From a virus, in the IMG/VR virus record IMGVR_UViG_3300025769_000006: DNA of 64,000 bases. One strand, 5' to 3'. A program made the translations under genes and the position numbers. Shown piece by piece: positions 27,204 through 43,341 of this stretch; the stretch's first letter is position 1, and the number at the start of each line of letters is the position of its first letter. The notes under the pieces are model-generated. The model saw only the letters and a program-made list of their open reading frames with translations, was not told where the DNA came from and searched no databases.

Positions 27204-28412
27204 TTAGTTAAATTTTTTTCTTCTTATTTTAAGTTTTGAAGAATCAGCACCACTTATAGCTTTAACTTTTAATCCGTTAACAAAAACATTTCCATTAGTA
27301 CCTTCTTGTCTTGGTTCTGTAGTTATGTTTTTTGACTTAGCAACGACATCTTTTACAGCATCGGCTTTGCCTTGTTCATAAAAGTGTTTAGCTATTGTAT
27401 CTGCGTTTCTAGCAGCATACATGGCTTTGTGGTAACCCTTTGGATTAATTAGTTCATTATTTTCATTTAAGAACGTCTTAACAAAATCTGTAATGTCTAA
27501 TTGGTTTTTAACAACATCATTAGGATTTTTAATTCCGTATCTAAAGTTTTTATCTCCTAAGTTAAAATCGAAACCTTCGAAATTTTCATTAAAAGTATCT
27601 TTAGTTACTTTTTCAAAAGCTTGACGCTGTTGAGTTACTTTTTGTTGATCTTCATTGTATCTATTAAAAAAGTCCATTGCTTTTTGTTGGTCTTCATTAA
27701 CTGATGATTTCAACTTGATTTCATCATAGTATTTATTTTTCAAACCTTCTAAAAAGCTTTTGGCTTTTCCAATTTCTTCTTTATATGCTAGTTTCTTTTT
27801 TCTAACATCTTTTTCGTCATCTAGTTCTTCATCATATGAAAAATTATCTTCTAATAAAAAATTAACTTCTTCATATTCTAAGTGTGGACGAGTATTTCTG
27901 TAATATTCTCTGAGTAAAGTGTTGTTGTCTATATTGTCATAATTAGCGTTTAATCTAACATAATCCTCTATAGTAGCCCCTGGCATTTCTTCCATAAAAG
28001 AAACTAATTTTTCAATGTTTTCAGGTAGTTTTTTTCCTAACACCTTTTCATCTCTTATTGCTTCTTTTACTTCTTGTTCAACTTTTTTTGTTTCTTCTTC
28101 TACTTTCTGCACTTCTTTAATAGGACTTTCAATGGGCTTTTCGTCTCCTTGTCCCACTTCTTGCAGTCCCACCTCGGGTCTTTCTTCGCGTAGCACGCTG
28201 CTCTCTGTTTCTGATTTTTGAACGGCATTTTCTTCTTGTTTTACTTTACTCAAATCAACCTTTACTGGTTCTTCTTTTTTAGCAACAGCTGCAAAATCTA
28301 TTTTTATTGTTTCTTCTGGAGCTGATAATTTTTTAGGTGTTTTTCTTTTTTGTTTTAACTTAAAGTCACCTTCCTGTTTAACAGGTTCATTTGTTTTTGT
28401 TTCTTCTGACAT
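27204..28412 (-). CDS. putative scaffolding protein
   Basis: A 402-aa, very E/K-rich, predicted-helical protein lying between the portal and capsid genes. Confidence 0.55.
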   Translation of the reverse strand: MSEETKTNEPVKQEGDFKLKQKRKTPKKLSAPEETIKIDFAAVAKKEEPVKVDLSKVKQEENAVQKSETESSVLREERPEVGLQEVGQGDEKPIESPIKEVQKVEEETKKVEQEVKEAIRDEKVLGKKLPENIEKLVSFMEEMPGATIEDYVRLNANYDNIDNNTLLREYYRNTRPHLEYEEVNFLLEDNFSYDEELDDEKDVRKKKLAYKEEIGKAKSFLEGLKNKYYDEIKLKSSVNEDQQKAMDFFNRYNEDQQKVTQQRQAFEKVTKDTFNENFEGFDFNLGDKNFRYGIKNPNDVVKNQLDITDFVKTFLNENNELINPKGYHKAMYAARNADTIAKHFYEQGKADAVKDVVAKSKNITTEPRQEGTNGNVFVNGLKVKAISGADSSKLKIRRKKFN

Positions 28413-28445: not shown

Positions 28446-30860
28446 TTATCTAGGATCAAATTGCTCTAATCCAAAACCTCCTAAATTGTCAAATCCTGCT
28501 GATTCAAAATCTTGAGGTAGTGTGTTGTTTTGTCTTTGATTTATTAGCTTTGACTCTTGAGTTCCTTGCATCTTTATTCTATTGTCTTTTCTATCTTCTA
28601 TCTCTTGTTCTTTAGTTGTTTCAGCTCTAGATTTTATTTGTGCAAGCTGCATGTTGTAACTAAACTCTTCAGCCATTAAACCTTTTTTTATTTCTGCTTC
28701 TTGAAGCATTTTTTGCATTTCAAGTTGCATTTTAGAAGTTTCTATTTGTATAGTTGTTTCGGCTAAAGCTTGTTGTTTTTGCATTTCTGCAGTTATAGCA
28801 GCTTCTGAAGCTTGAGCGTTAGCCTGCGCTTGAGCCTGAATATTAGCTTGTTGATTTGCTTGATCTTGTCTAGCTTTTGCTTTTCTTTTTTGTTTTAACA
28901 GAGCGTTTGCTAGTTTTATATTTTTTACTTGTCTAATGTCTATGGCATCATCTAAATCTATTCCACCTGACTGTAAAGCTATTTGTATGTTTTGCTCTAA
29001 TTGAGCTTTAGCTTCTTCGTCTGGTTCTAATTCTAAGAATATTCCAAAATCTTGTAGATTTTTTTCTTGCAACTCCTCTAGTGTACCAGTATTGTACGAT
29101 GATATAGAATCTATTAAAGCAGCTCTAGTTAACGGATATTCTAAAGCATCAGCTATTCTTAGCGCTATGTTTTCACAAGTTCTTAAAGTTAGATATAAAC
29201 CACCTTGCATAACATGTCTTAGCGCTGTGTTTGAGTTTGCTGCAGCTAATTTCTGTAAACCTACAAGCGCATCTTTACTAGGCGTGCTAGCATCAGACGC
29301 TTCATTCAGACCTGTTACGTCGCGTATCATTTGTAAATAATACTGATATGTTTGTATTAAACTTTGTATTTTAGCACCACCATTACTAGTTTGAAGTTCT
29401 TGAATAGGAACTTTACCTCTATTCAAATCACCATCTTGTGTCATAGATCTTCCAACTATAGAACCAGTTTGAAAATACATATTTAAAGCTTCAGAAGCGT
29501 TGTAGTTTGTGCCATTACCAAGATCAACCTCAGCTAAACCATCTACATCAACAAAAACCCCGTCTGGTACCATTCTAGATAGTACTTGTTGTAGTTTTAA
29601 ATGAGTAAGTTGTATTATGTCCGCAAAACCTGTTATTCTACTAACTGTAGACTCTATCATTCCTTTATACATTCTAGGAGCGCATATAGAATAATTCATG
29701 TTAACTTTAGTTAGATTTGAATTTGGTCGCGTCATGTTTTCAGACATTTTCCACTCTAACATCATTTCATGTCCTAATATTTTAGCGCCAGTATATAAAA
29801 CCTCTATACTTCTACCCACTCTTTCAAAGTTATCGTTTGGTTGTGGATTAAAAGTATCTGGCTTTTCTAATGCTTTTTCAAGACCTTGATCAGTTTGTTT
29901 TATTTTAAATATTTGATTACTGTAAGTTTTGTATTCAAAATATAAAACTTGAACTTGATTATACGAATCTTGTTGCGCATAAAAGTTTCTAGTATAATTA
30001 GCGTCTCCAGGAAATTTTTCAATTTTTTCTAATTCAGCATCTGATAAACCAGGAAATTGCTTTTTTAATTCAACTAAACTTATTGATTTAACTTCTCCAG
30101 CGTAATATATATCATCAAAATTTGGATCTTCTGTATAAGAATAAACTAAATTAGCAGGATCTACGTAGTTAACTGTAACGCCATTAGCCAAATTAAAATC
30201 AGTTTTTACAGCTCCTATTCCTATTATAGTTAAATCTTGTATTAATCTCTTTTTTATTAAATCATATTTATTATAAGCTAAAACATTTTCAATAGCCTCT
30301 TCTTCGGCTATTTCTATTGACTGTTTGTAGCTTAATTGCATGTGTAAGTCCAACTCCTGTTGAGTTTCAGGCAAATTGTCTGTGTCATTAGTGTTAAAGA
30401 AATTCATGCCTGTGGCTTGATTTGTAGCTTCAATTATTTCTTTAGCATACATATCACGCATTATAGCGTCTGCATATTTTGTTCTTTTCTTTAATGACTC
30501 TGGATCTTGAGCAAAAGCTTTAATATCAAATATTTTTTGCGACATTCCATTTACTATAATATCAACAAATTTTGGTATTATTGGAACAGGTTTCCAGTCT
30601 AAGTTTAAGTAAGATAAATCGCCATTGACAGCTAATTCATCTTTATATTTTTGAACAGGTTGTTCGCCTCTTGCGTAGAGTCTTAATCTGTGAAAGTTTA
30701 ACCAACTATTTTGATATCTATTACCTAAACCCCCTCTATCTCCAGAAAACCACTCTCCTTCAATAGCTCTACCCACGGCGTAACCATAATCATAACTTTG
30801 CTTTTCTTCATCAGATACAACCTGACTAGGAAACGAACCTGCGTAATTAGTGTAAATCAT
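28446..30860 (-). CDS. putative portal protein (804 aa)
   Basis: Immediately downstream of, and abutting, the large terminase gene. It has a Q/A-rich C-terminal coiled coil. Size and synteny fit a portal. Confidence 0.6.
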   Translation of the reverse strand: MIYTNYAGSFPSQVVSDEEKQSYDYGYAVGRAIEGEWFSGDRGGLGNRYQNSWLNFHRLRLYARGEQPVQKYKDELAVNGDLSYLNLDWKPVPIIPKFVDIIVNGMSQKIFDIKAFAQDPESLKKRTKYADAIMRDMYAKEIIEATNQATGMNFFNTNDTDNLPETQQELDLHMQLSYKQSIEIAEEEAIENVLAYNKYDLIKKRLIQDLTIIGIGAVKTDFNLANGVTVNYVDPANLVYSYTEDPNFDDIYYAGEVKSISLVELKKQFPGLSDAELEKIEKFPGDANYTRNFYAQQDSYNQVQVLYFEYKTYSNQIFKIKQTDQGLEKALEKPDTFNPQPNDNFERVGRSIEVLYTGAKILGHEMMLEWKMSENMTRPNSNLTKVNMNYSICAPRMYKGMIESTVSRITGFADIIQLTHLKLQQVLSRMVPDGVFVDVDGLAEVDLGNGTNYNASEALNMYFQTGSIVGRSMTQDGDLNRGKVPIQELQTSNGGAKIQSLIQTYQYYLQMIRDVTGLNEASDASTPSKDALVGLQKLAAANSNTALRHVMQGGLYLTLRTCENIALRIADALEYPLTRAALIDSISSYNTGTLEELQEKNLQDFGIFLELEPDEEAKAQLEQNIQIALQSGGIDLDDAIDIRQVKNIKLANALLKQKRKAKARQDQANQQANIQAQAQANAQASEAAITAEMQKQQALAETTIQIETSKMQLEMQKMLQEAEIKKGLMAEEFSYNMQLAQIKSRAETTKEQEIEDRKDNRIKMQGTQESKLINQRQNNTLPQDFESAGFDNLGGFGLEQFDPR

Positions 30861-33071
30861 TTATCTTATTATTTTTGAACTAAATCCTTTATTATCGTAT
30901 TTTTTAAAACCTAAATTTTTAACTTCTACTTTTCTTTTAAATACAGGTGTATATAGGTTTTTGTTGCAGGCCATTATAGCTAAACCTGAACTTATGGAAG
31001 CATCATGCTTTGTTCTATTATTTATATCAAATCTCGACCAATCTTCTAATGTTTTTTGAAAATACATATCACCATATTTTTCCCCTAAATTACCAACATA
31101 AGTTTCTATATAAGATTCTATAGCTGCGGCGTGGGCTTGTTTTATGTCTTGGCTAGAATTAGGTATACCACCTATTTCTCTTTCTGTAACTGACAACTTC
31201 ATATATACTTTATCCGGTCTATTCATAGAGTAACCTCTATAACCTCTTCTTTTGAAATGGTATAATAATCTTGGTTTATTATTTTCAGCTAATATTGGCA
31301 TACCATAAAATATACAAGCCATAAGTACATCTTCAAAAAATATTTCAGCTGTTTGAGGTCTAGCTATATATTCTAAAAAAAACATACTATTTGGTGCATC
31401 TTCCATTGAAAATTTAGTTAAACCGTGTAGTGAACCGTTTGAACCTCTAGAATCTACCGTACCTGATATATCATATGGGTCACAGCCAAAAGCACCAATA
31501 TGCTCATTTCCTGGATATTTAATACCGTTTTTATTTATTACTACGTTTTGTAATCTTACAGGAGGTACCCAAGATATGTTAAATCTTCCATTTTTATTAG
31601 GAACAAATAAAACTTTACTGTCTTTAATTCCATTTTGCCATTGAAAAGATCCTTTGGTAATAAGCAATTCGTTTTTAACGTCTTGATTAAAATCTATTTG
31701 CTCATATATTTTTGTTAAATTAAATAAAGACTGTTTTGCCTCATCTCTAAAGGCGTGTTGTTCAGTTCTTGGAAACTGTCTATAAAATTCGTTTAAAGCA
31801 TCTTGATCTTTTTTTAATCCATCAACTTCATTTTGCCAATACTCTAATACACCTATTTTTATTTTTTTTCCGTGCGGACCTTGCGTATCTTTATTTGGAG
31901 TTTCGAAGACAGGTAAGCCATAAGAATCAATGTAGCCTTCGTAGTTCCATTCCATAGGTATGAACAAAGAATATAATCCTGAGCGAGTCTCTCCATTGGC
32001 GTTTCTTTCTCTGACATCTGAATCATTATATAGTTTTTTAAAATTACTACCACCTTTATCTAAAGCATTAGATGTTGATCCCATCATGCATTTACCTATA
32101 ATTCTTCCACCTAATCTTAAACAAGTTTTTGTAACTCTCCAGTTATTTAATATGTTATTAGGTTTTTCCCACTTACCACTTTCATCGTGGACAAGTAGTT
32201 TTAATTTTTCACCATCATAAGAGTTATCACCAGTATTTTTCCAATCTATTGTTGTGTCAAGCCCGTCAAGTTCTTGAACTTTTTGGTTTGTTTCAAGTTT
32301 TCTTCTTGTGTATTTTGTTGCTGGTACTCTATAGGCAAGCTCTGTTTTTGGCCTGTCCATACCGTCCTGGATGGGTTTGAAAAAGAACGGGTAGTTGACT
32401 GATATTGGTACGACTTTGTCTGTGAACATTTTCTTAGCATCGGGACCAGATTTGGACAAGATACCATACCGTGCATCTGACGTAATTGTTGCCATATTAA
32501 CGGTTTCTGCTGAAGACATAAAAGAAAATCCGGAGCGTCTGTTTTTAAGATAACACATTCCATAACATCGTGAGTCTGCTTTACAAGCTTCCCAGAAAAT
32601 GTAGAATAATCTATTTGATTCCCTAAAGTCTGGCTGCCCAACGTCAATTTTGCTCCACTGCAAGTACATAAAGTGAGTACCAGTAATGTAAGTAGCCACG
32701 CTCTTATTATAGAACCAAAAGCCTTGTTCTCTTTTATTAAATTCATTATCAATGTAATCATACCATTTTTCTTTAAAATCTAAAGGATATTGCTCCCAAT
32801 CAAAAACTGATTTTATTTTTTTTAATTCTTTTGGATATTCAGTATATTCCCACGTGTTAGAATCAAAAGAATAAACATTGTTTGATTTAGGTAAAGCAAT
32901 TTTTAGATTTTGTATTTCATATATTTCTCCAACAGTACCGTCTTTACTTATAACTACGACATCGTGTTCATCATTATAACCATACTCCCATTTTTTATAC
33001 CTATTCATTCTTTTGAGAACTTTAGGTTTAATATGGTCTTTTAAAACTTTATACAAACTTTGCTCGTGCAT
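30861..33071 (-). CDS. terL: terminase large subunit
   Basis: Walker-A-like LKNRRSGFSF and Walker B LKLLVHDESGKW. The C-terminal nuclease-like region has an acidic GAFGCDPYD. Length is 736 aa. Confidence 0.8.
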   Translation of the reverse strand: MHEQSLYKVLKDHIKPKVLKRMNRYKKWEYGYNDEHDVVVISKDGTVGEIYEIQNLKIALPKSNNVYSFDSNTWEYTEYPKELKKIKSVFDWEQYPLDFKEKWYDYIDNEFNKREQGFWFYNKSVATYITGTHFMYLQWSKIDVGQPDFRESNRLFYIFWEACKADSRCYGMCYLKNRRSGFSFMSSAETVNMATITSDARYGILSKSGPDAKKMFTDKVVPISVNYPFFFKPIQDGMDRPKTELAYRVPATKYTRRKLETNQKVQELDGLDTTIDWKNTGDNSYDGEKLKLLVHDESGKWEKPNNILNNWRVTKTCLRLGGRIIGKCMMGSTSNALDKGGSNFKKLYNDSDVRERNANGETRSGLYSLFIPMEWNYEGYIDSYGLPVFETPNKDTQGPHGKKIKIGVLEYWQNEVDGLKKDQDALNEFYRQFPRTEQHAFRDEAKQSLFNLTKIYEQIDFNQDVKNELLITKGSFQWQNGIKDSKVLFVPNKNGRFNISWVPPVRLQNVVINKNGIKYPGNEHIGAFGCDPYDISGTVDSRGSNGSLHGLTKFSMEDAPNSMFFLEYIARPQTAEIFFEDVLMACIFYGMPILAENNKPRLLYHFKRRGYRGYSMNRPDKVYMKLSVTEREIGGIPNSSQDIKQAHAAAIESYIETYVGNLGEKYGDMYFQKTLEDWSRFDINNRTKHDASISSGLAIMACNKNLYTPVFKRKVEVKNLGFKKYDNKGFSSKIIR

Positions 33072-33346
33072 TACTTAGCTCTTCCTTCTGCAAAACCACT
33101 AAAAGATTTTTCTTCTTTTATTTCTTTTGGTTTTTCGTTTAACAAGTTTTCTTCTTCTTCAATGCGACTTAAAATTTCAAAAGCATCAAATATAGCTAAT
33201 TTTTTAGTTGCAGCCGCGTTTTTTAAACGATCAGCAGATATATCATCATCTGAATCAACAATAGCTTCTTTAGCTACTTTTATTAATTCTTCAACTGCTT
33301 TTTGACCAGCTTGGATTATATTCTTCTTCGTCTCCTTTGTATTCAT
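33071..33346 (-). CDS. acidic hypothetical protein upstream of terL
   Basis: ORF track entry. Its stop overlaps the terL ATG, and its 5' end overlaps the previous gene by 56 nt. Confidence 0.4.
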   Translation of the reverse strand: MNTKETKKNIIQAGQKAVEELIKVAKEAIVDSDDDISADRLKNAAATKKLAIFDAFEILSRIEEEENLLNEKPKEIKEEKSFSGFAEGRAK

Positions 33347-33896
33347 ATTTAATTACAATATCATTTGATTTCATGCAGTATAGTCTTTTATTTTCAACTA
33401 AAAACTCCCATTCACCGTCCGGTTTATAACCAACAAGGTCTCCTTCGTTTATTTCTAGCGATTCTAAGGACTTATTTCCGTATTTTAATATACCAATAAG
33501 CTTTCGCTCTTTATCAGTTACTAGATGGTTATTATTTTTTATTGGTTGTATAAAACATCTTTCACCAAAAGAGTTGTAACCACTTTTATTTTTGTATAAA
33601 TAAATTTGGTCTATTGAGCAGAAATATAAATCATCTTTAAAGTAAGATCTTGATTTTTTCTTTTTGCCTTTCATGTCGTAAAATGTTCTAAAAACATTTT
33701 GATGAACAATAACTGTGTCACCTTTTTTTATTGGCGTTTTAAAAGCTTTAGGTGTTTCTATTACTTCTGCAAACCTGTTCACAAACTTCCAACTTTCAAT
33801 TTTACTATTTAATATTAACTTTTTTTTGTCAATATTAATTTCATTATTGTAAGTTTCACCTATAGGTTTTACAATAAAATCATACAGACTTTTCAT
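33291..33896 (-). CDS. hypothetical protein with two GroES-like (Cpn10-pattern) halves
   Basis: FIVKPIGE..AEVIETP..IKKGDTVIV..DLYFCSIDQIYLY, then CFIQPIKN..IGILKYG..INEGDLVGY..RLYCMKSNDIVIKY. By-eye pattern only. Confidence 0.3.
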   Translation of the reverse strand: MKSLYDFIVKPIGETYNNEINIDKKKLILNSKIESWKFVNRFAEVIETPKAFKTPIKKGDTVIVHQNVFRTFYDMKGKKKKSRSYFKDDLYFCSIDQIYLYKNKSGYNSFGERCFIQPIKNNNHLVTDKERKLIGILKYGNKSLESLEINEGDLVGYKPDGEWEFLVENKRLYCMKSNDIVIKYEYKGDEEEYNPSWSKSS

Positions 33897-35570: not shown

Positions 35571-37097
35571 TTACGCAAAAGAACCAAAATCATCAGATTC
35601 AAAAAGTTTATTCATTTTTAACTCATCAAATCTAGTTTTTCCAGGATTTTTTTTATTATTAGAGGCAACTGTGTTTAAAGCATCTATTAAACTATCTTGA
35701 TCAAACGTTCTATAAAACTCAGTTTGCTCTAAGTTATTTTCTTTTATTCTTTTTTCTAGCTTTTCTTTGTCAAACTGCTCTCCAGGTTCCATATTCAAAG
35801 CTCTTCTAAATTGATGAAAATTATTGTAAAGCTCTCCATATTGGGTAAAATAATCTTTTAGTTGTGTTGTTGGACCTGCTTTTAATCTTAGTTTAGATCT
35901 TAAATAAGGGTCCATAGCGTGATCTCTACCTGACTTATGTAATATTTCATGCTCACCAACATTAACACCACTTAGTAATGCTCTATTGTATTCATCTTCA
36001 CCTCCGTAATTATCGTAAGAAAGATCTCTACCTACGCCTGGTATAAGCTGTTCATTTATTATAATATCACCAGTAGAAGAAATTGAACCACCTCCACCAA
36101 ATCCACTTCTAGGGTTTAAAAGGTTTCTTAAATCACTATTTAAAACATCAGATTTAGCTTGACCGTAGTTACCCGTAGACATTACCTTTGGTTGTATTCC
36201 TAAATTGCTAACCATTCTATTTATAGATATATCCATGTCCATTTCACTAGCTAATTCACCTGCTTTTTCTACATTTTCGCCAAACATTTGAGAGTTTAAA
36301 TCGTCACCATATCTAACATTTTTTCTGTTAAAATCAACAGGTAATGAACCTAGTTTTTGAGCTTGCTGTGGATATCTTTCTCTAGTTACTGGGTGATTAG
36401 CCCAATCTAAAGCTTGTTGCGCAGATTGTATTAAATATTGATTAGCAGGATCTTCCATGTCTAAACCACTATTTTCTAATTTATTTTGAAAATATTTTTC
36501 TTTTTCCTCTTGGCTCATTCCGTATAAAGATAATTCAATGTTTGGATCTTCGACATTAAATCTTTGATCCGTATAACCAATAGCGTATTCCATATCTGGA
36601 GACCAACTTTGATCTTGTAAATTAGAAAGTTCATAACCAGTACTTACATATGGATTTCTTGGTTTACTTCTGTCAGAAACATAATCTTTATCTTTAGTTT
36701 CATCTTTTTTAAGACCATAGTAAGCTTGGGTAGGTGTTAAACCAAATTGACCACTAAACGCATAAGATTCTAATTCTTCATTACTAGCATTTGGGTTTTT
36801 CTTTTTTAACTCATCTAGTATGTAGTTTCTATAATCTTCAGTCATTCTCTGCCTTTCGCTGTATCTTTTTTTTGCTTCTTCAGCTTCTGGCTTTAAACTT
36901 AATTTTTTACCTTCAACATCCCTTAAATCTTCTTTTAGAATAAACTTAGGCTTATTAACTCTAGTATTATCTACTTGAACGTTTGGTCTTCTTTTGTCTG
37001 TTGGATTGATTGGGTGTTGAGTACCATCATGAAACTTTATAGGGCTGTTGTTTACACCACCTTTTAAATTCTTAAAATAACCTTTTTTTAATCCCAT
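35571..37097 (-). CDS. SPIK-box protein with HExxH motif (508 aa)
   Basis: NNSPIKF lies near the N-terminus. HEILH is encoded at 35937-35951. Confidence 0.45.
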   Translation of the reverse strand: MGLKKGYFKNLKGGVNNSPIKFHDGTQHPINPTDKRRPNVQVDNTRVNKPKFILKEDLRDVEGKKLSLKPEAEEAKKRYSERQRMTEDYRNYILDELKKKNPNASNEELESYAFSGQFGLTPTQAYYGLKKDETKDKDYVSDRSKPRNPYVSTGYELSNLQDQSWSPDMEYAIGYTDQRFNVEDPNIELSLYGMSQEEKEKYFQNKLENSGLDMEDPANQYLIQSAQQALDWANHPVTRERYPQQAQKLGSLPVDFNRKNVRYGDDLNSQMFGENVEKAGELASEMDMDISINRMVSNLGIQPKVMSTGNYGQAKSDVLNSDLRNLLNPRSGFGGGGSISSTGDIIINEQLIPGVGRDLSYDNYGGEDEYNRALLSGVNVGEHEILHKSGRDHAMDPYLRSKLRLKAGPTTQLKDYFTQYGELYNNFHQFRRALNMEPGEQFDKEKLEKRIKENNLEQTEFYRTFDQDSLIDALNTVASNNKKNPGKTRFDELKMNKLFESDDFGSFA

Positions 37098-37099
37098 AA

Positions 37100-37567
37100 C
37101 TAAGCATTTTTAGTTTTATCGTAAGCTTCTTTTTCCCAAGGTAAATTTTTAGCTCCTTCGTTCATTTGAGATCTAGGATATTTTTTACCTTCCCAATAAA
37201 CATTATCATCATCATAAGCAAGTCGACGATCTTTTATTTGCTTAATATGAATCATTTCATGATCTATAACGTCTTGTTTTTGCTTTAGGTCTGTTATGTC
37301 TTTGTTTATAAGTATAGTACCATTATTAGTAGCCATACCTAAAGTATCATCACCCATATCGACATGCATTATAGGTGTATTGTATTCTTCTTTAATATAT
37401 GGAGACCCTTTCATTTTAAAACCCATTTTTAAAGGAGAAGTTCTTTTCTTTTTAGCTGCTTTTAATGAAGCGTCATTTCCAGTTCCAGAGCCAGATCTTT
37501 TTCTTGCTTTATTCCAGTTTTCGCTGTGCATTAAAGAACTCCAACAGTGTTTTATAGGTGAACCCAT
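37100..37567 (-). CDS. small SPIK-box protein with HExxH zinc-metalloprotease motif (155 aa)
   Basis: MGSPIKHCW, TSPLKM and GSPYIK are present. HEMIH is encoded at 37247-37261. Confidence 0.5.
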   Translation of the reverse strand: MGSPIKHCWSSLMHSENWNKARKRSGSGTGNDASLKAAKKKRTSPLKMGFKMKGSPYIKEEYNTPIMHVDMGDDTLGMATNNGTILINKDITDLKQKQDVIDHEMIHIKQIKDRRLAYDDDNVYWEGKKYPRSQMNEGAKNLPWEKEAYDKTKNA

Positions 37568-37571
37568 ATAT

Positions 37572-37613
37572 TGTTTTTTTATAAATAAACCCCGCGACTA
37601 TTAAGCCGCGAGG
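37572..37613 (-). terminator. rho-independent terminator after 37638..38051
   Basis: On the minus strand: CCTCGCGgcttaatagtCGCGGGG followed by a T-rich run. Confidence 0.55.
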
Positions 37614-37637
37614 ATATATTTAATTGTTGATTAATTT

Positions 37638-38051
37638 TTATACGTCGTCAACAGTTCCAACGGACCAAGTTGACCAGTACATTTGCTTTGGTGTAGCAGC
37701 TTGATCTTTTCCTAATTGAGCTGTAGATACAACTCCACCTGGATTAGCAGTCATAGCTGAAAAGATAGCTTTGTCTGGAGCGTAAGCACCGTCTGTAATA
37801 GTTGGTACTCCAGCACTTCCATCTTTTGTTGTTGTAACTGTAGCTGTTAAAACTCTTGCAGAGATACCTGCAGAAGCGGCATCTACTCCAAAACCACCAG
37901 CAGCAGCAGTTAAAACTGCAGTTACAACACCTGTTGAAGCATTGTAAGATACATCTCCAATGTGGTCAACATTGATTAATTTTGTACCTTGAGTTAGTAA
38001 AGCAGCTGCATCAGCAGTGTTTACCACGTTAAATTTAATGAATTTTGCCAT
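37638..38051 (-). CDS. Ala/Thr/Gly-rich small structural protein (137 aa)
   Basis: ORF track entry with a CAAAA-repeat leader and its own terminator, suggesting high expression. Confidence 0.45.
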   Translation of the reverse strand: MAKFIKFNVVNTADAAALLTQGTKLINVDHIGDVSYNASTGVVTAVLTAAAGGFGVDAASAGISARVLTATVTTTKDGSAGVPTITDGAYAPDKAIFSAMTANPGGVVSTAQLGKDQAATPKQMYWSTWSVGTVDDV

Positions 38052-38111
38052 TTTGTTTTGTTTTGTTTTTGTTAATGATTTGTTTGACTTGGGTTTTACA
38101 GTTCCCTACTG

Positions 38112-38570
38112 TTATCCTTTTAATCCAAATTCAAGTCCTTTGTCAACTTTCATTTTTAAAGCGTGAATCTTTTTAAGCATGATAGGATCTCCTTTCATCA
38201 TAGCTGGATCATTAGCATCACCCATTGCGTTATAAGCTCCAGACATGTCTTTAATGTCGTCTGAATCAGCTAAGTTTTTTATAGGCATTGTTTTGCCGTC
38301 TACTTCCATTGTTGTTGCATCTGGATTTTTCTTTAATGTTTCAGCTTTTATAAAGCCTAAGTTTTTAGGAGCGTGATCCATTTTGGCAGCTGGTTCTCCG
38401 TACATTTTAGCGACGCAATGTTTTTTAGCCGGATGACTATGCTTGTCATGCTCACTGTTTTCTAAATAATGTAGTCTAGCGTTTGCAGTAAGATCTTTGT
38501 TATAAGCTTCTCTAGCATCATATTTTTGCCCCGAAGAATATCTCGGGTGATTTCCTGAATAATTTCCCAT
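38112..38570 (-). CDS. hypothetical basic protein (152 aa)
   Basis: ORF track entry with a CAAAA-rich leader. Confidence 0.45.
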   Translation of the reverse strand: MGNYSGNHPRYSSGQKYDAREAYNKDLTANARLHYLENSEHDKHSHPAKKHCVAKMYGEPAAKMDHAPKNLGFIKAETLKKNPDATTMEVDGKTMPIKNLADSDDIKDMSGAYNAMGDANDPAMMKGDPIMLKKIHALKMKVDKGLEFGLKG

Positions 38571-38595
38571 TTTGTTTATGTTTTGTTTTGTATTG

Positions 38596-38940
38596 TTATT
38601 GTTTGAGTTTTTCTACTGCGTTTTTTGCAATACCAAATAACCCACCAGTTGCAGCGTCTGCAAGTTTAAATTTATTTTTATTTACAAATTTTTTAGCAGT
38701 GCTAGCAAAATCGCTTACTTTTTCTCCAAAAGTTTTTGGTATTGTATTATCATATTTCCAGTCTAATTTGTCGTAAACATCTCTTCTACCTTTACTTCCT
38801 GGAGGATTGTTTGTTAACATTTGACTTTTAATAGCGTCTACACCTCTTTTTTGTAGATCGCTTGATGATACTTGTATTGAAGACCCATCGTCTTGCAATA
38901 TATTTTTTTTGTCGTGATTATTTTTAATTGGTGATGGCAT
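38596..38940 (-). CDS. SPIK-box basic protein (114 aa from internal start)
   Basis: In-frame ATG 38940 gives MPSPIKNN.. and removes the 89-nt overlap with the upstream gene. Confidence 0.45.
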   Translation of the reverse strand: MPSPIKNNHDKKNILQDDGSSIQVSSSDLQKRGVDAIKSQMLTNNPPGSKGRRDVYDKLDWKYDNTIPKTFGEKVSDFASTAKKFVNKNKFKLADAATGGLFGIAKNAVEKLKQ

Positions 38941-38950
38941 AATTTTTATT

Positions 38951-39256
38951 TTAACATTTCCAGCGTCTACGCGCTGCTTTACCTCTTTCGCCCGTCCAAC
39001 CTTTGGATCTAGCGCAGAATGATTTTCTTCTTTTAGCATCTTTGCTGCCAGGTTTTACTTTACCTGTCACAGCTGTTTTAAGTTTACTACCAGGGTTTTT
39101 CTTTCTATATTCTTTAACGCCTTTTTCTGTCATACCAGCGCCTTCTTTAGTAGTTCTAAAATTTCTACCTTTACCCTTAGTAGTTTTTCTTGGCTCGTTT
39201 TTATGTAACGGTGATTCTATTGATGATGATTCTTTTATTCTTTTTAACCAAGTCAT
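38951..39256 (-). CDS. basic protein with SPLHK box (101 aa from internal start)
   Basis: In-frame ATG 39256 lies 1 nt after the upstream stop. The C-terminus is RRKSFCARSKGW. Confidence 0.4.
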   Translation of the reverse strand: MTWLKRIKESSSIESPLHKNEPRKTTKGKGRNFRTTKEGAGMTEKGVKEYRKKNPGSKLKTAVTGKVKPGSKDAKRRKSFCARSKGWTGERGKAARRRWKC

Positions 39257-39257
39257 A

Positions 39258-39629
39258 TTATTCTCCGCATTTTTTTGATGGATCATCAACTCTTCTCCAG
39301 TCTTCTTTTTCAAACCAGTCACGTAATGTAGCTCCTTTTTTACGAGCGCCTTTTACATTAGTCTTTGATGATCTTTTATATTTACCTTTAGCACCAGCGG
39401 CTTTTTTAGAGTTAACTAGCTTTTGTCTTTGCTCTTTACTCATGCTTCTTATTTTAGAAGCTGGTAAACAAGTTTTAGTTGTACCGCCACCTTTTTGTTT
39501 TTTCTTTTTAACTGGCGAGTTTTTTTTACAACTGCCTTTACTATACGGATCTTTACCTTCTACTGCAGAATAACCAGACCAACATCTTTTTAAGACAGGT
39601 GAATTAAAAGGTTGCTTATATCCTTGCAT
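39258..39629 (-). CDS. basic protein with SPVLKRCWS and SPVK boxes
   Basis: ORF track entry; NSPVLKRCWSGY parallels SPIKHCWSS of 37100..37567. Confidence 0.45.
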   Translation of the reverse strand: MQGYKQPFNSPVLKRCWSGYSAVEGKDPYSKGSCKKNSPVKKKKQKGGGTTKTCLPASKIRSMSKEQRQKLVNSKKAAGAKGKYKRSSKTNVKGARKKGATLRDWFEKEDWRRVDDPSKKCGE

Positions 39630-39784
39630 TATTTTTTCTTTTTACCACCAAATTTACTAGGACCTCCAGCTTTTGTGCAACGCACTCCCCAGCCAGAAGC
39701 ATAAGCGCTTGGCCATACTTTAAATTTTCTTTTAGCAGCAGATTTACAAGCTGAACTTATTTTCTTTATTGGTGAAATTGGCAT
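39629..39784 (-). CDS. SPIK-box microprotein (51 aa), not in ORF track
   Basis: ATG 39784 to TAA 39629-39631: MPISPIKKISSACKSAAKRKFKVWPSAYASGWGVRCTKAGGPSKFGGKKKK. There are TAATG overlaps at both ends. Confidence 0.5.
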   Translation of the reverse strand: MPISPIKKISSACKSAAKRKFKVWPSAYASGWGVRCTKAGGPSKFGGKKKK

Positions 39785-39990
39785 TATCCTAGTTTTGCTC
39801 TTTTAGTAATTGGCATACCAGCTCCACACTCACATGGTGCTTTTGAAACTTCAAGTCCATATATACCACTGCTTGATCCTTTACCCATTGGGAAACCTGT
39901 TTTGTCTAGAGGTCCGTCCCATATAGCGTTTTCACCAATTTGGCCGTCTAATTTTGGGTTACTTTTTATTTTTTCAATATCGTGATTCAT
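39784..39990 (-). CDS. hypothetical protein (68 aa)
   Basis: ORF track entry. Confidence 0.4.
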   Translation of the reverse strand: MNHDIEKIKSNPKLDGQIGENAIWDGPLDKTGFPMGKGSSSGIYGLEVSKAPCECGAGMPITKRAKLG

Positions 39991-41097: not shown

Positions 41098-41544
41098 TTA
41101 TCTATTTTTATCTTTATTAACATCGTATATAGACCTTGTTAAAACTTTATCTATATAACTGTTACCTTTTATGATGTTGTTTCTTCTTTTGCTAGTAGGT
41201 ATATCTTCTTCCCCTAACATTATTTTATATATCCTAATTATAAGTTGTTTAAATTTAAAAGAAACTTTATATATATTATATTTTTGTGTTGTTCTGTTTC
41301 TATGCCTCCAAACAACTATCCAGTTTTCTTTTATTAATTTATTCCACCTTCTGTTGTTCCAACTGTAAGAATATGTACCTTTTATAAAATCTTTTTTTGT
41401 AAAATAATTTACGGCGTCTAGATATATTAAAAGTTCTAATTCAGCGTCAGTTAAGCCGTTGTTTTTGCAAGCCCATTTGCGTATTATACGGTAATGTTTT
41501 AACAGATTCAATTCTTTAATATCTTCTGCGTCTAGCTTTCTCAT
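41098..41544 (-). CDS. hypothetical protein (148 aa)
   Basis: ORF track entry. Confidence 0.4.
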   Translation of the reverse strand: MRKLDAEDIKELNLLKHYRIIRKWACKNNGLTDAELELLIYLDAVNYFTKKDFIKGTYSYSWNNRRWNKLIKENWIVVWRHRNRTTQKYNIYKVSFKFKQLIIRIYKIMLGEEDIPTSKRRNNIIKGNSYIDKVLTRSIYDVNKDKNR

Positions 41545-41801
41545 ACAACAACGACCACGTCTTGTGACTTTATAACGTGATATATATTTTTTTCAAACTC
41601 TATTTTATGACCAGCGTGTCTATCAAAAAATATTTCATCATTTTCTTTAACACCATCAACTTCATTTCCAACTGATATTACTAGTGCTCTTCTGTATCTT
41701 AAATCATTTTTTTGATTTTCAGAAAGAAGTAAACCACCTTTTGTTTCTGTAGTTCCTTCTTTTTTGACTAATATTATTAAGTTTCTACCTATTGCTTTCA
41801 T
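41541..41801 (-). CDS. groES: co-chaperonin GroES-like (Cpn10)
   Basis: At 86 aa: LIILVKKEGTTETKGGLLLSE (mobile-loop pattern) ..ALVISVGNEV..NDEIFF..IYHVIKSQDVVVVV. Confidence 0.75.
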   Translation of the reverse strand: MKAIGRNLIILVKKEGTTETKGGLLLSENQKNDLRYRRALVISVGNEVDGVKENDEIFFDRHAGHKIEFEKNIYHVIKSQDVVVVV

Positions 41802-43341
41802 TTATTCTAACGTTATTTATTACACAATTAGTAGAAAGTATAGTAGTTGCTACAGAAGCCGCATTTTTTAATGCACTTTTAGTAACTAATAGTGGATCTA
41901 TAATTCCACTTTTAATCATATTAACCATTTTTCCTGTAACCACGTCGTAACCTTGACCCTTTTTATAAGGATAATCTAAGTTATCAACACCTGCATTAGA
42001 AAGAATAGTTCTATAAGGTGCGGTTATAGCACTTAACAACAGTCGTTCGCCTAATGAATAAGCTTTAACTTTTTGAGAAGCGTTTAGAAGCGCAATACCA
42101 CCACCTGGAACAATACCTTCTTTAACAGCGGCTTTTGTAGCACAGATAGCGTCTTCCACTCTATCCATTTTTTCTTTAAGTTCTATTTCAGAATTAGCTC
42201 CAACTTTTACTACAGATATCCTAGATGAAAGCATTGCTAATCTTTTTTCTAAACTTATTACTTGATCAGGTATTTTACAAGTTATAAGCTTTTTTTCTAT
42301 ATCTTTGATTATCTCAGCACATTCATGGCTTTGCTCTTTAAACTGTAATATAGTATCTGTTTGGCTGGTTATAGACTTAAAACATGTACCTAGATGATCT
42401 ATTTCTATTAAATCCATATCATCACCTAAATCTTCGTTTATTAACGTCGCTCCTGTTAGCAAAGAAAGATCATCAAACATTTGTTTTCTATTTACACCTA
42501 ACACAGGTGCATCTATAACATTAACTTTTATATTTCCTTTTGTTTTATTCATTGCTAATGCTGATAAAACCTCAGGACTTAAATCTGCTATTATTAAAAG
42601 TGATTTATTGTTTTTTATAACATATTCTAAAACACTTTGTATCTGTCTTATGTTTTCAACATTATTTTCTACTAATAAAACAAGAGGGTTGTTTAACTCT
42701 GCAGTCTTTTTAATTTTATTAGTAACAAAATGAGGACTTGTTAGACCTTTAAAATATTGAGAACCTTCTATTGTTTCTATTTCTGTTTTACCAGAATCAG
42801 ATTGTTCCATTATAACTACACCTGTATTTTTTACATTTTCAAATGCTTTACCTATTAACTCTCCTAACTCTTTATCATTGTTTGTTGATATAGTAGCTAT
42901 TTGTTTTATCATTTCATCTTTAACAGGTAAAGATATTTTATTTAAATAATCAACAACTCTATTAACAGATTTATTTATATCTTCTTTTAGCTCTCTTACA
43001 CTAAGTTCTGATTTAACTTTATTTGCTTCATAAAGTATTGAGTGAGCTAAAACAGTAGCTGTGGTAGTGCCATCACCCGCTTCTTTAACAGTTTTTTTTG
43101 CGGCTTGTTTTAACAAGTTGCAACCTAAATTTTCTACCGGATCTATTAACACTACGCTTTCAGCAACTGTTACACCATCTTTTGTTATTGTTGGATTTCC
43201 ATATTGATCTTCTAGCAAAACACAGCTACCACCAGCGCCGAGCGTTGAACTAACCGCGTTTGCTAACTTGTCAATACCATTAAAAACTTTATTCCTAGCA
43301 TCGTCTCCAAAACTAAGATTTTTAACTATCTTGTCTGACAT
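41785..43341 (-). CDS. groEL: group I chaperonin GroEL-like
   Basis: ITKDGVTVA, EAGDGTTTATVLA (ATP site) and VPGGGIALL are present. At 518 aa it has no GGM tail. Confidence 0.9.
   Translation of the reverse strand: MSDKIVKNLSFGDDARNKVFNGIDKLANAVSSTLGAGGSCVLLEDQYGNPTITKDGVTVAESVVLIDPVENLGCNLLKQAAKKTVKEAGDGTTTATVLAHSILYEANKVKSELSVRELKEDINKSVNRVVDYLNKISLPVKDEMIKQIATISTNNDKELGELIGKAFENVKNTGVVIMEQSDSGKTEIETIEGSQYFKGLTSPHFVTNKIKKTAELNNPLVLLVENNVENIRQIQSVLEYVIKNNKSLLIIADLSPEVLSALAMNKTKGNIKVNVIDAPVLGVNRKQMFDDLSLLTGATLINEDLGDDMDLIEIDHLGTCFKSITSQTDTILQFKEQSHECAEIIKDIEKKLITCKIPDQVISLEKRLAMLSSRISVVKVGANSEIELKEKMDRVEDAICATKAAVKEGIVPGGGIALLNASQKVKAYSLGERLLLSAITAPYRTILSNAGVDNLDYPYKKGQGYDVVTGKMVNMIKSGIIDPLLVTKSALKNAASVATTILSTNCVINNVRINESNR

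What the first reader, a model, noticed from the sequence alone, without database searches (positions are those of the whole stretch)
35571..39990. Cluster of at least six consecutive, mostly basic proteins sharing an N-proximal SP(I/L/V)K box
Seen:
- MGSPIKHCW (start 37567)
- MPSPIKNN (start 38940)
- MPISPIKK (start 39784; an unlisted 51-aa ORF)
- FNSPVLKRCWS and NSPVKKKK (39258..39629)
- ESPLHKN (38951..39256)
- NNSPIKF (35571..37097)
- extra TSPLKM and GSPYIK inside 37100..37567

Two of them continue with (H/R)CWS. The genes are chained by TAATG or 1-nt-gap junctions.

Inference: a paralogous family of packaged or internal proteins. Its shared box could be a capsid-targeting, protease-recognition or phosphorylation (S-P) signal. 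I cannot place the box in any described family.
Basis: partly seen in the sequence, partly recalled or inferred. Interest (0 to 1): 0.65.

Follow-up and report, generated by a model that had tools for sequence, protein, structure and literature searches.

The report
Shared leader tag on small phage proteins
A short peptide tag (Ser-Pro-hydrophobic-Lys, usually within a few residues of the start) really does mark a run of otherwise unrelated small late proteins in this uncultured marine phage and its whole clade. It looks like a shared address or processing label, comparable to the capsid-targeting leader of phage T4 internal proteins, but its function is untested.

Summary
Six of the seven strict SP[ILV]K matches in about 20,100 aa of window proteome fall in 1,341 aa (35571-39990). 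Shuffling those proteins predicts 0.085 matches. Codons differ between copies, so selection acts on the peptide.

The carriers are not paralogues. They include a DUF5872-like 51-aa protein, a CWxGY/CLP module protein, a DUF6321 protein, a 114-aa protein, a roughly 100-aa HExxH mini-metallopeptidase-like protein with a disordered N-extension, and a 508-aa HExxH protein. Two box-less genes interrupt the run.

In 80+ related metagenomic loci the motif density is 2.6-4.1 per 1000 aa in this slot, against about 0-0.3 elsewhere. About 45% of copies lie in the first tenth of the protein, and at least 9 BLAST-unrelated families carry it. In sister lineages it expands to M-A-F-K-M-K-G-S-P...[SA][PA]ΦK[QK]. 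That leader gave 59 hits in IMG/VR, nearly all in this GroEL-encoding podophage clade, and none in 596 Gb of cellular genomes.

The same modules in pelagiphages and cyanophages lack the prefix. Related isolates lack both the prefix and the HExxH gene.

Best reading (inferred, about 0.4): a clade-specific address or processing tag on a hypervariable cargo set, analogous to the T4 capsid-targeting sequence. Rivals are an SPKK-like DNA-binding arm, a plain module linker, and a phosphorylation site.

The parts
39629..39784 (-). p51: a 51-aa basic protein (pI 10.7) starting MPISPIKK. It resembles the N-terminal part of DUF5872 (KFKVWPSAYASGWG). Box at 39764-39775.
   Evidence: DUF5872 at 17.7 bits, below the gathering score; phrog_27331. 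The orthologue in L006 starts MASSPIKK. The pelagiphage HTVC027P homologue lacks the box.
39258..39629 (-). p123: a 123-aa basic protein (pI 10.3) made of several modules. The order is leader box SPVLK (39588-39602), CWSGY...GSC, second box SPVKKKK (39507-39518), GGGT-CLPASK...MSKEQRQ, then LRDWFEKEDW...CGE (the C-terminal part of DUF5872).
   Evidence: Relatives exist fused or split exactly at the second box. Homologues outside the clade (RCWEGY...) lack the SP prefix.
38951..39256 (-). A DUF6321 protein (101 aa) with the N-terminal prefix MTWLKRIKESSSIE-SPLHK-NEP placed ahead of the core RKTTKGKGRNF...RRRWKC. Box at 39200-39214.
   Evidence: PF19846, 44.7 bits against a cut-off of 28.5; about 72% nucleotide and 76% amino-acid identity to pelagiphage genes that start directly at the core, without the box. 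25 of 42 clade members carry an N-proximal SPF(L)K.
38596..38940 (-). p114: a 114-aa basic protein starting MPSPIKNNHDKK. Box at 38923-38934. No family assignment.
   Evidence: Orthologues in L003, L006, L016 and L017 start MPSPIK or MPSPIRK.
38112..38570 (-). p152: a box-less member of the slot carrying degenerate copies (SHPAKK, GEPAAKM, DHAPKN). It is related to the Met/His-rich family whose relatives carry tandem MGH[KE]-SP[AM]K repeats.
   Evidence: family 1; 39 of 96 members carry the motif.
37638..38051 (-). p137: an acidic, box-less protein that interrupts the run. It is followed by a terminator-like hairpin (37590-37613).
   Evidence: (family 14; 0 of 40 members carry the motif).
37100..37567 (-). 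p155: a disordered N-extension carrying three boxes, fused to a roughly 100-aa HExxH core (HEMIH ... NLPWEKEAY). The boxes are SPIK at 37550-37561, SPLK at 37427-37438 and SPYIK at 37391-37405. In most relatives the core stands alone and begins M[AGS]F[KI][ML]K/N-x-PPY.
   Evidence: pLDDT 76-92 for residues 61-150, below 50 for most of residues 1-57; the best PDB fold matches are the minigluzincins selecase, abylysin and jannalysin plus IrrE, at E 0.06-0.4 and probability about 0.9; no sequence match in the PDB.
35571..37097 (-). p508: an acidic 508-aa protein. Its N-terminal 26 aa (MGLKKGYFKNLKGGVNN-SPIK-FHDGT, box at 37035-37046) are nearly invariant in homologues that are otherwise only 34-40% identical. 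The C-terminal region contains HEILH and GELYNNFH motifs.
   Evidence: AF2 was uninformative (mean pLDDT 40).

Best explanation
The SP(I/L/V)K box is the core of a clade-specific peptide leader. Its full form in sister lineages is M-[AGP]-F-K-M-K-G-[ST]-P-Φ...[SA][PA]-Φ-K-[QK]. In this window it is trimmed to M-[GP]-(x)-S-P-I-K.

The leader is prefixed to, or sits at the module junctions of, a hypervariable set of small late proteins that are mostly basic and low in hydrophobic residues. These proteins are encoded between the phage GroES/p148 genes and the holin/terminase genes.

Shown:
- The motif is under peptide-level selection.
- It is N-terminally biased.
- It is attached to unrelated protein bodies.
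- It is absent when the same modules occur in other phages.
- It is essentially restricted to one clade of uncultured marine GroEL-encoding podophages. These probably infect Flavobacteriia.

Inferred:
- The leader is a recognition tag for one shared partner.
- Most likely it directs these proteins into the procapsid or virion as cargo.
- It may also mark them for trimming by the co-conserved ~100-aa HExxH mini-metallopeptidase-like protein, which carries the same leader.
- This would work the way the T4 capsid-targeting sequence marks polymorphic internal proteins for encapsidation and cleavage.
For: - Enrichment and peptide-level selection in the window.
- Clade-wide density of 2.6-4.1 per 1000 aa at gene positions -6 to -2 relative to the HExxH gene, against about 0-0.3 elsewhere.
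- 71 of 157 motifs lie in the first tenth of the protein, and 51 within the first 10 residues.
- At least 9 BLAST-unrelated families carry it N-proximally. None do among GroEL, GroES, TerL, portal or holin.
- In the slot, 32.6% of 478 unique proteins carry a leader feature, against 5.6% of 712 outside.
- Fifty distinct MAFKMKG proteins keep more than 3 bits per position over the first 9 residues. A second [SA][PA]ΦK[QK] element follows, and after it conservation is lost.
- Serine uses both TCN and AGY codons.
- Most of the 58 IMG/VR leader loci carry this clade's GroEL, p148 or TerL markers. There were 0 hits in 596 Gb of cellular genomes.
- DUF6321, DUF5872 and CWxGY modules lack the prefix in pelagiphages, cyanophages and other contexts.
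- The N-terminal 26 aa of p508 are nearly invariant while the rest of the protein is 34-40% identical.
- The HExxH protein has a minimal-zincin-like fold and invariant H-E-x-x-H. It starts with the leader.
- The HExxH gene is absent from related isolates that also lack the leader.
- The slot lies inside the late structural and lysis operon.
- In the syntenic slot of Cellulophaga phage phi38:1, a 91-aa very basic protein is annotated as a structural protein.
- The T4 precedent is diverse internal proteins that share only a capsid-targeting sequence (PMC3012670).
Against: - There is no virion proteomics, no cleavage data and no cultured member of the clade.
- The link between the HExxH gene and the leader rests on one clade-level co-occurrence. 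Most loci were collected by anchoring on the HExxH gene, so co-occurrence within the clade is partly built in.
- Six of 40 loci with an HExxH gene had no strict box. At least three of the six turned out to carry a variant or a box one gene further downstream.
- The fold match is weak (E 0.06-0.4, TM 0.3-0.43).
- No prohead protease or scaffolding core of the T4 type is evident. The head genes look P22-like.
- Some boxes are internal, or occur as tandem repeats (MGHKSPAK). This fits a linker or a nucleic-acid-binding arm equally well.
- Two contigs of another phage type (L114, L128) carry the leader, and no HExxH gene was seen in the stretch held.
Confidence: 0.4

Rival explanations
1. The box is an SPKK/SPXX-type nucleic-acid-binding arm. 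It would form a beta-turn that fits the minor groove of AT-rich DNA, as in the tails of histone H1 and sea-urchin sperm H2B. The cluster would then encode small DNA-condensing or DNA-coating proteins, possibly co-packaged with the 31% GC genome.
For: - Carriers are mostly basic. 62% of leader-bearing bodies have pI above 9, and p51, p123, p114 and the DUF6321 protein have pI of about 10 or more.
- Lysine is frequent at positions +4 and +7 and at -5/-4.
- Forms such as NSPVKKKK exist, as do tandem MGH[KE]SP[AM]K repeats in relatives.
- The genome is AT-rich.
- SPxK is the linker-histone motif in the literature retrieved.
Against: - The third residue is hydrophobic in nearly all copies. Lysine occupies it in only 3 of 136 SPxK hits.
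- There is usually one copy per protein, at the extreme N-terminus.
- The box is also prefixed to acidic bodies (p508 at pI 5.6; many acidic bodies in L099) and to an enzyme-like HExxH domain.
- The modules are already extremely basic without it, and they function without it in pelagiphages.
Confidence: 0.2
2. The box is only a structural module boundary, either a helix or turn N-cap or a flexible linker. It would have spread with mini-gene cassettes by recombination and gene fission and fusion, and would have no common binding partner.
For: - The box sits at module junctions in fused proteins. Those proteins are split into separate genes exactly there in relatives.
- The slot is hypervariable, with many small families and singletons.
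- S-P is a common helix N-cap (general knowledge).
Against: - A mere linker would not be expected to keep a 9-residue invariant M-A-F-K-M-K-G-S-P at the start of about 50 unrelated proteins.
- It would not explain the 26 nearly invariant residues at the N-terminus of p508.
- It would not explain why the same modules lack the box in other phages.
- Serine codon classes differ, which argues against simple DNA-level copying.
Confidence: 0.2
3. The box is a proline-directed phosphorylation site. [ST]-P-x-[KR] is the CDK/MAPK consensus, and the site would regulate these proteins.
For: The sequence matches the consensus (literature). A phi38:1 gene is annotated as a 'putative mitogen-activated protein kinase' in a proteomics paper.
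Against: - No kinase domain was found in the Pfam scans of about 38 window proteins.
- Proline-directed kinases are not established in Bacteroidota or their phages (own knowledge).
- The strict hydrophobic third residue and the extended MAFKMKG context are not features of kinase sites.
Confidence: 0.05
4. The conserved start reflects translation initiation or mRNA requirements of Shine-Dalgarno-less Bacteroidota messages (an A/U-rich start region), not a peptide function.
For: Upstream regions are A-rich and lack a Shine-Dalgarno sequence. The MAFKMK codons are A/U-rich.
Against: - The S-P-Φ-K part uses G/C-containing and mutually non-synonymous-class codons (AGY versus TCN; CCN).
- It also occurs internally, at junctions and in tandem repeats.
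- Other highly expressed late genes of the same phages lack it.
Confidence: 0.05

Closest known systems
T4-type capsid targeting sequence (CTS) on polymorphic internal proteins (IPI, IPII, IPIII, Alt and the hyperplastic ip locus of T-even phages)
   Same: A short conserved N-terminal leader is shared by otherwise unrelated, small, often basic late proteins. These are encoded in a hypervariable locus. Only the leader is conserved between phages (PMC3012670, compared).
   Different: - There is no sequence similarity to the T4 CTS (MKTYQEFIAE, from memory).
- The head genes here are P22-like, with no recognisable gp21-type prohead protease or scaffolding core.
- Encapsidation and cleavage are untested.
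- The motif also occurs internally and in tandem.
SPKK/SPXX minor-groove-binding motif of histone H1 and sperm H2B tails
   Same: An S-P-x-K tetrapeptide in basic, disordered N-terminal regions, sometimes in tandem.
   Different: The third residue is hydrophobic rather than basic. There is usually a single copy at the very N-terminus. It also occurs on acidic and enzyme-like proteins.
Minigluzincins (selecase, proabylysin, projannalysin): soluble metallopeptidases of about 100-110 aa
   Same: The conserved core of p155 is about 100 aa long. H-E-x-x-H and downstream Glu residues are invariant. The AF2 model has these proteins as its best PDB fold matches.
   Different: There is no detectable sequence similarity. 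The Foldseek E-values are only 0.06-0.4. Those proteins are archaeal and this one is from a phage. Activity is untested.
Pfam DUF6321 and DUF5872 mini-modules of marine phages and giant viruses
   Same: The protein at 38951-39256 is a bona fide DUF6321 member. p51 resembles the N-terminal part of DUF5872, and the C-terminus of p123 resembles its C-terminal part.
   Different: Here the modules carry the clade-specific SPΦK prefix. DUF5872 is split and permuted. Both families have unknown function.

Membership tests
T4-type CTS-bearing internal proteins | A conserved short N-terminal leader on otherwise unrelated small proteins of one phage lineage | tested here: met
T4-type CTS-bearing internal proteins | Sequence similarity to the T4 CTS, and a prohead-protease cleavage site (L/I-x-E) at its end | tested here: not met
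   By inspection of the leaders there is no resemblance. The T4 consensus is quoted from memory.
T4-type CTS-bearing internal proteins | The proteins are present inside the capsid and the leader is removed during maturation | not testable with these tools
   There is no cultured member and no proteomics. The only indirect hint is a small basic 'structural protein' (gp080) in the syntenic slot of phi38:1.
SPKK/SPXX DNA-binding motif | S/T-P followed by two basic residues (strict SPKK) | tested here: not met
   The third residue is A, F, L, I, V or M in nearly all copies. Lysine occupies it in 3 of 136.
SPKK/SPXX DNA-binding motif | Binding to the minor groove of AT-rich DNA | not testable with these tools
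Proline-directed kinase site [ST]-P-x-[KR] | A cognate proline-directed kinase is available, either phage-encoded or from the host | tested here: inconclusive
   No kinase Pfam domain was found in about 38 window proteins scanned. Small ORFs and the host were not examined.
Pfam DUF6321 (PF19846) | A score above the gathering threshold | tested here: met
   44.7 bits against a cut-off of 28.5 for the ORF at 38951-39322.
Pfam DUF5872 (PF19197) | A score above the gathering threshold | tested here: not met
   p51 scores 17.7 bits against 27.5 and matches only profile positions 6-41. HTVC027P gp50 matches positions 53-109 at 21 bits.
Minigluzincin metallopeptidases | An HExxH zinc site in a catalytic domain of about 100 aa | tested here: met
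   H103, E104 and H107 are invariant in 66 sequences. The core is about 102 aa.
Minigluzincin metallopeptidases | Significant structural or sequence similarity to selecase, abylysin or jannalysin | tested here: inconclusive
   Foldseek gives E 0.06-0.4, probability 0.8-0.98 and TM 0.27-0.43. The PDB profile search found nothing.

The most novel reading that the evidence does not exclude
A whole clade of abundant uncultured marine podophages uses a dedicated peptide leader (MAFKMKGSP...SPΦK[Q/K]) as a cargo label. Dozens of interchangeable small proteins, and polyprotein-like fusions of them, would be addressed to the procapsid and cut at the label by a leader-bearing minimal zinc protease. They would then be delivered with the DNA as a rapidly evolving arsenal of effector or anti-defence proteins. 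This would be a P22-like-head counterpart of the T4 internal-protein system, with an unrelated signal and an unrelated protease.
Probability: 0.25. Interest if true: 0.8.

Novelty: new variant of a known kind. Interest (0 to 1): 0.6.

Why it matters
If the tag is an encapsidation or processing signal, it becomes a sequence-only way to read out the cargo (ejected protein) repertoire of a widespread group of uncultured marine Bacteroidota phages.

It would also assign a first functional context to mini-modules of unknown function, such as DUF6321 and DUF5872, which are scattered over pelagiphages, cyanophages and giant viruses.

In addition it would supply a short portable tag, and perhaps a matching minimal protease, for loading foreign proteins into phage heads.

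Even if the mechanism is different, a 9-residue invariant start on about 50 unrelated proteins is a strong constraint, I found no description of it in the searches run here, and it needs an explanation.

Tried and rejected
- **DNA-level repeat.** Rejected, because codons differ between copies, including the TCN and AGY serine classes.
- **Paralogy of the carriers.** Rejected by all-against-all BLAST clustering and by the family scans.
- **The SPIK in the 402-aa scaffold-like protein as a meaningful outside copy.** Rejected, because it is not conserved in 17 homologues.
- **Family assignment.** PHROGs and Pfam assign no family to p114, p123, p137, p152, p68, p508 or eight of the ten proteins from related loci that were tested; the other two got only unknown-function PHROGs.
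- **Searches of GenBank phages.** tblastn of a 24-aa leader consensus and of p123 found no match.
- **p508.** It has only 7 homologues in 5.8 billion proteins. Its AF2 model was too poor to search with (mean pLDDT 40), so no fold search was run.
- **HExxH protein as endolysin.** Considered because of its position next to the holin. Not adopted: known peptidoglycan peptidases of phages use other motifs (own knowledge), and relatives carry separate M15 peptidases.
- **Host mimicry of an N-terminal cleavage motif (as with L27/Prp in staphylococcal phages).** The leader pattern gave no hit in 596 Gb of cellular genomes.
- **Kinase search.** Negative.
- **Literature.** Full-text searches for the motif in phages, and for DUF5872 or DUF6321, returned nothing relevant. 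The Holmfeldt 2013 paper could not be retrieved to check whether phi38:1 gp080 was seen by mass spectrometry.

Full report
**1. What the window is**

The window is a low-GC (about 31%) phage genome segment. A long minus-strand late operon runs from about 50.4 kb down to 6 kb. In order of transcription it encodes:
- tail-fibre-like proteins (YadA- and collagen-like)
- a phage GroEL (41785-43341) and GroES (41541-41801; Cpn60_TCP1 and Cpn10 domains on the orthologues)
- a 148-aa and a 375-aa protein
- the cluster in question (39990-35571)
- a signal-peptide protein
- a holin (phrog_3427)
- several small proteins
- a GroES-like 201-aa protein
- the large terminase (30861-33071)
- a P22-type portal (28446-30860)
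- a 402-aa scaffold-like protein
- a 480-aa virion protein, followed by further virion proteins including giants of 1681 and 2453 aa

The plus-strand ends carry ribonucleotide reductase, MazG, ECF-type sigma factor(s), an ERF recombinase, an exonuclease and a primase-helicase.

The closest sequenced relatives by terminase and portal are:
- an uncultured podovirus from Manatee Spring (TerL 63% identical)
- Flavobacterium phages of the genus Elemovirus (45%)
- Cellulophaga, Tenacibaculum and Maribacter podophages

These relatives, together with the A-rich start regions that lack a Shine-Dalgarno sequence, point to a Flavobacteriia host.

**2. Checking the observation**

Under the strict definition SP[ILV]K, 6 of the 7 matches in 81 called proteins (20,141 aa) lie in the 1,341 aa of the cluster. 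Shuffling each cluster protein 20,000 times gave a mean of 0.085 matches and never six. A binomial estimate from those numbers is about 6e-7.

The copies use different codons: TCA, TCT, TCG and AGC for Ser, CCA, CCT and CCG for Pro, and ATA, ATT, GTT, GTC and TTA at the hydrophobic position. The repeat is therefore in the peptide, not in the DNA. The only strict match outside the cluster is in the 402-aa scaffold-like protein. It is absent from all 17 homologues examined and is best read as chance.

Corrections to the description:
- The run is interrupted by two box-less genes, p152 and p137. p68, at the upstream end of the stated interval, also lacks the box.
- Three boxes need an inserted residue (SPVLK, SPLHK, SPYIK).
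- p508 and p137 are acidic.
- Only four junctions are of the TAATG or 1-2-nt type.

**3. What the carriers are**

They are not paralogues.
- **p51** resembles the N-terminal half of Pfam DUF5872 (KFKVWPSAYASGWG), below threshold.
- **p123** is a string of mini-modules: a leader box, CWSGY...GSC, a second box SPVKKKK, GGGT-CLPASK...MSKEQRQ, and LRDWFEKEDW...CGE. The last module corresponds to the C-terminal half of DUF5872.
- **The protein at 38951-39256** is a clear DUF6321 member (44.7 bits).
- **p114** has no family.
- **p155** is a disordered 57-residue N-extension carrying three boxes, fused to a core of about 100 aa with invariant H-E-x-x-H and NLPWExEAY. The core has 348 detectable homologues, most of them stand-alone proteins of 101-106 aa. 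Its AlphaFold model is confident over the core, with 10-residue block means of pLDDT 76-92. The best PDB fold matches are the minimal metallopeptidases selecase, abylysin and jannalysin and the IrrE/PprI protease domain, though only at E 0.06-0.4. A profile search of PDB sequences found nothing.
- **p508** has only seven homologues in 5.8 billion proteins. It carries a conserved HE[IL][LT]H...GELY[AN]NFH region. Its N-terminal 26 residues, which include the box, are nearly invariant while the rest is 34-40% identical.

In an all-against-all BLAST clustering these proteins fall into separate families.

**4. The motif is a property of a whole clade and of one genomic slot**

I collected syntenic metagenomic relatives through exact-protein look-ups. 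I collected 80 IMG/VR loci by anchoring on the HExxH gene.

Among non-redundant proteins, the density of SP[AILVMF]x?K is 2.6-4.1 per 1000 aa at gene positions -6 to -2 relative to the HExxH gene. It is 1-2 per 1000 at positions -1 to +1, and about 0-0.3 in the GroEL, terminase, portal and other flanks. Of 157 motifs in that region, 51 start within the first 10 residues, and 71 lie in the first tenth of their protein.

At least nine BLAST-unrelated families carry the motif N-proximally:
- DUF6321: 25 of 42 members
- a 66-aa ...NFGCKK family: 13 of 13
- the p508 family: 8 of 11
- a 164-aa family: 8 of 9
- p114: 6 of 7
- a 648-aa family: 4 of 6
- a 112-aa family: 4 of 5
- p123: 4 of 4
- p51: 3 of 3

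No member of the GroEL, GroES, p148, holin, portal or p75 families has the motif at all. In the terminase and p201 families none has it N-proximally.

I then delimited the slot by p148 on one side and by the holin or terminase side on the other. Within it, 32.6% of 478 unique proteins have an N-proximal [ST]PΦx?[KR] or an MAFK-type start, against 5.6% of 712 outside.

Relatives also contain tandem forms such as MGH[KE]-SP[AM]K repeated up to nine times. p152 of the window is a degenerate member of that family.

**5. The box is the core of a longer leader**

In sister lineages the same position reads M-[AGP]-F-K-M-K-G-[ST]-P-Φ. A degenerate DNA pattern for M[AP]FKMKG[ST]P found 59 stretches in 2.9 million IMG/VR contigs, giving 46 distinct sequences. 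In these, serine is encoded by both TCN and AGY codons.

An alignment of 50 distinct proteins with this start shows more than 3 bits per position over the first nine residues. A second element [SA][PA]ΦK[QK] follows some 10-15 residues later, and there is no conservation beyond it.

Most of these loci carry the GroEL, GroES, p148, HExxH, holin or terminase genes of the same clade, with TerL about 70-81% identical. In one divergent member (L099), 11 of about 22 genes in 14 kb begin with the leader. Many of those bodies are acidic, and the HExxH protein itself starts MPFKMKYKNEAFPFKG.

Two contigs (L114, L128) belong to a different phage type. There the element sits at internal junctions between the same basic mini-modules, near an M15 peptidase.

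The pattern has no match in 596 Gb of bacterial and archaeal genomes. The HExxH gene occurs there only in MAG bins of mixed taxonomy, which are presumably mis-binned phage contigs. No PHROG covers most of these proteins, and the leader has no tblastn match in GenBank phages.

**6. The prefix is added to pre-existing modules**

DUF6321 genes of pelagiphages are up to 76% identical in protein, and about 72% in DNA, to the window gene. They start directly at the core (MAIRRTTKGKK..., MIRKTTKGPG...), whereas clade members start MAYIQxSSPFLK-(V)RKTTKGKG.

The DUF5872-type protein of HTVC027P starts MAKLCPKGKAAAKRKFKVYPSAYA, against MPISPIKKISSACKSAAKRKFKVWPSAYA here.

An exhaustive HMMER search with p123 (136 hits) shows three things:
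- CWxGY modules outside the clade context begin ...(K/R)RCWEGY, without an SP prefix.
- Clade members read SP[LFM]xCW.
- The CLP/LRDWF module occurs fused behind a box, or as a separate protein that begins a few residues upstream of the same box (MYVQNSPFLKKSKVKGGGTKKVCLP..., MRSPFTKVRK...).

A 287-aa protein (P0132) strings leader-CWxGY, SPAN, CLP, LKDWF and DUF6321 into one chain. So the box marks the N-terminal boundary of a module, whether the modules are fused or split.

**7. Related isolates lack both the leader and the HExxH gene**

The syntenic slots of Flavobacterium phage elemoF, the Manatee Spring podovirus and Cellulophaga phage phi38:1 contain lysis genes, tail-fibre-like genes and some small basic proteins, but no SPΦK prefix. 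A profile of the HExxH family finds nothing there even at E=10, while it does find the divergent clade members. The 155-aa protein also has no match in those phages by tblastn.

In phi38:1 a 91-aa very basic protein (gp080) in this slot is annotated as a structural protein. I could not retrieve the primary proteomics paper to verify this.

**8. Interpretation**

Directly shown:
- The motif is under peptide-level selection.
- It is N-terminally biased.
- It is independent of the body it is attached to.
- It is specific to one clade and one slot, with an extended invariant form.

The pattern of a conserved short leader on a hypervariable set of unrelated small late proteins is what is known for the T-even internal proteins. 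Those share only a capsid-targeting sequence that directs them into the scaffolding core and is removed by the prohead protease (PMC3012670).

By analogy, I consider the most likely function to be an address or processing tag read by one shared partner. The natural candidate partner, or co-traveller, is the conserved leader-bearing mini-metallopeptidase-like protein. This step is inference. I put it at about 0.4. I put the weaker statement, that the leader is a functional shared short linear motif, at about 0.85.

The main rivals are these:
- **An SPKK/SPXX-like nucleic-acid-binding arm.** It is supported by the basic context and the tandem forms. It is weakened by the hydrophobic third residue, the single N-terminal copies, the acidic and enzymatic carriers, and the fact that the modules are already very basic without it.
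- **A mere module linker or N-cap spread by cassette shuffling.** It is supported by the junction positions and the gene fission and fusion. It is weakened by the 9- and 26-residue invariant stretches.
- **A proline-directed phosphorylation site.** Only the consensus match supports it, and no kinase was found.
- **A translation-initiation constraint.** It is contradicted by the codon classes and by the internal copies.

**9. Comparison with what is known, and novelty**

The box does not belong to any described family that I could find.
- It works like, but is not a member of, the T4 CTS system. There is no sequence similarity and no gp21-type protease, and encapsidation is untested.
- It matches the loose SPXX pattern but fails the strict SPKK definition.
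- The DUF6321 assignment of one carrier is solid. The DUF5872 and minigluzincin assignments are sub-threshold or inconclusive.

I therefore file it as a new variant of a known kind of feature, namely a shared targeting or processing leader on polymorphic phage proteins. To my knowledge it has not been described before.

**10. Limits**

- All related sequences are metagenomic. Gene calls in the loci are simple longest-ATG ORFs, so some N-termini may be misplaced.
- Most loci were gathered by anchoring on the HExxH gene or on the leader itself. Co-occurrence inside the clade is therefore partly built in. Only the contrast with the three isolate lineages is independent, and it may reflect a single evolutionary event.
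- The fold match of the HExxH core is weak.
- No experiment bears on localisation, cleavage, DNA binding or modification.

Noticed in passing
window 37590-37613 (- strand), between p137 and p155: A strong terminator-like hairpin (10 pairs, 7 of them G-C) followed by TTTATTTAT. It lies in the 70-nt gap after the acidic 137-aa protein. This suggests a transcript end or attenuation point in the middle of the cluster, and that p137 may be an abundant product.
   Followed up: partly
window 39006-39190: The DUF6321 core is about 71-74% identical at the DNA level, and up to 76% at the protein level, to genes of SAR11 pelagiphages. It also matches T7-like and T4-like cyanophages. This is a mini-gene shared across phages of unrelated hosts, which implies horizontal transfer and a host-independent target.
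   Followed up: partly
window 39629-39784 and 39258-39330: Pfam DUF5872 appears split and permuted here. Its N-terminal part (WPSAYASG) forms the 51-aa protein. Its C-terminal part (LRDWFxExW...CG) lies at the end of p123, after the CLP segment that follows it in the HTVC027P homologue.
   Followed up: partly
window 38112-38570; L009 9172-9489; L080: p152 belongs to a Met/His-rich family. Its relatives carry up to nine tandem MGH[KE]-SP[AMV]K units and a conserved GSWMSKH(C/S)xK tail. The composition is reminiscent of metal-binding Met/His motifs. The function is unknown.
   Followed up: no
window 41541-43341 and 33291-33896: The phage encodes a full GroEL and GroES pair. It also encodes a second, 201-aa protein assigned to a PHROG annotated as co-chaperonin GroES, just upstream of the terminase. 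All of these are conserved across the clade and in related isolates.
   Followed up: no
window 57015-57566 and 59602-60354 (+ strand): There is an ECF-type sigma-70 family protein (regions 2 and 4) and a second weak sigma region-2 match. The phage probably redirects transcription with its own sigma factor(s).
   Followed up: no
L005 2650-3084; L006 10452-10892: Close relatives carry a 144-146-aa membrane protein with a GldL_N hit (the gliding-motility/T9SS motor component). It sits immediately next to the holin-like gene, where the window has a signal-peptide protein.
   Followed up: no
L114 and L128 (IMG/VR contigs 3300030330_001725 and 3300021197_001010): This is a different phage type. None of this clade's GroEL, TerL or HExxH markers appear in the 8-11 kb held. 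It also carries MAFKMKGSP-type starts and internal ...GPFKMKSPLKGK... junctions between the same basic mini-modules, next to an M15 peptidase.
   Followed up: partly
window 6062-13423 and 17577-22622 (- strand): Two giant late proteins of 2453 aa and 1681 aa. The 1681-aa one matches a PHROG annotated as a virion structural protein. They are candidates for ejection or internal proteins of this podovirus.
   Followed up: no
window 27204-28412 (- strand): A 402-aa Glu/Lys-rich protein between the portal and the capsid-like gene. It is probably the scaffold. It holds the only strict SPIK outside the cluster, and that copy is not conserved in homologues.
   Followed up: yes
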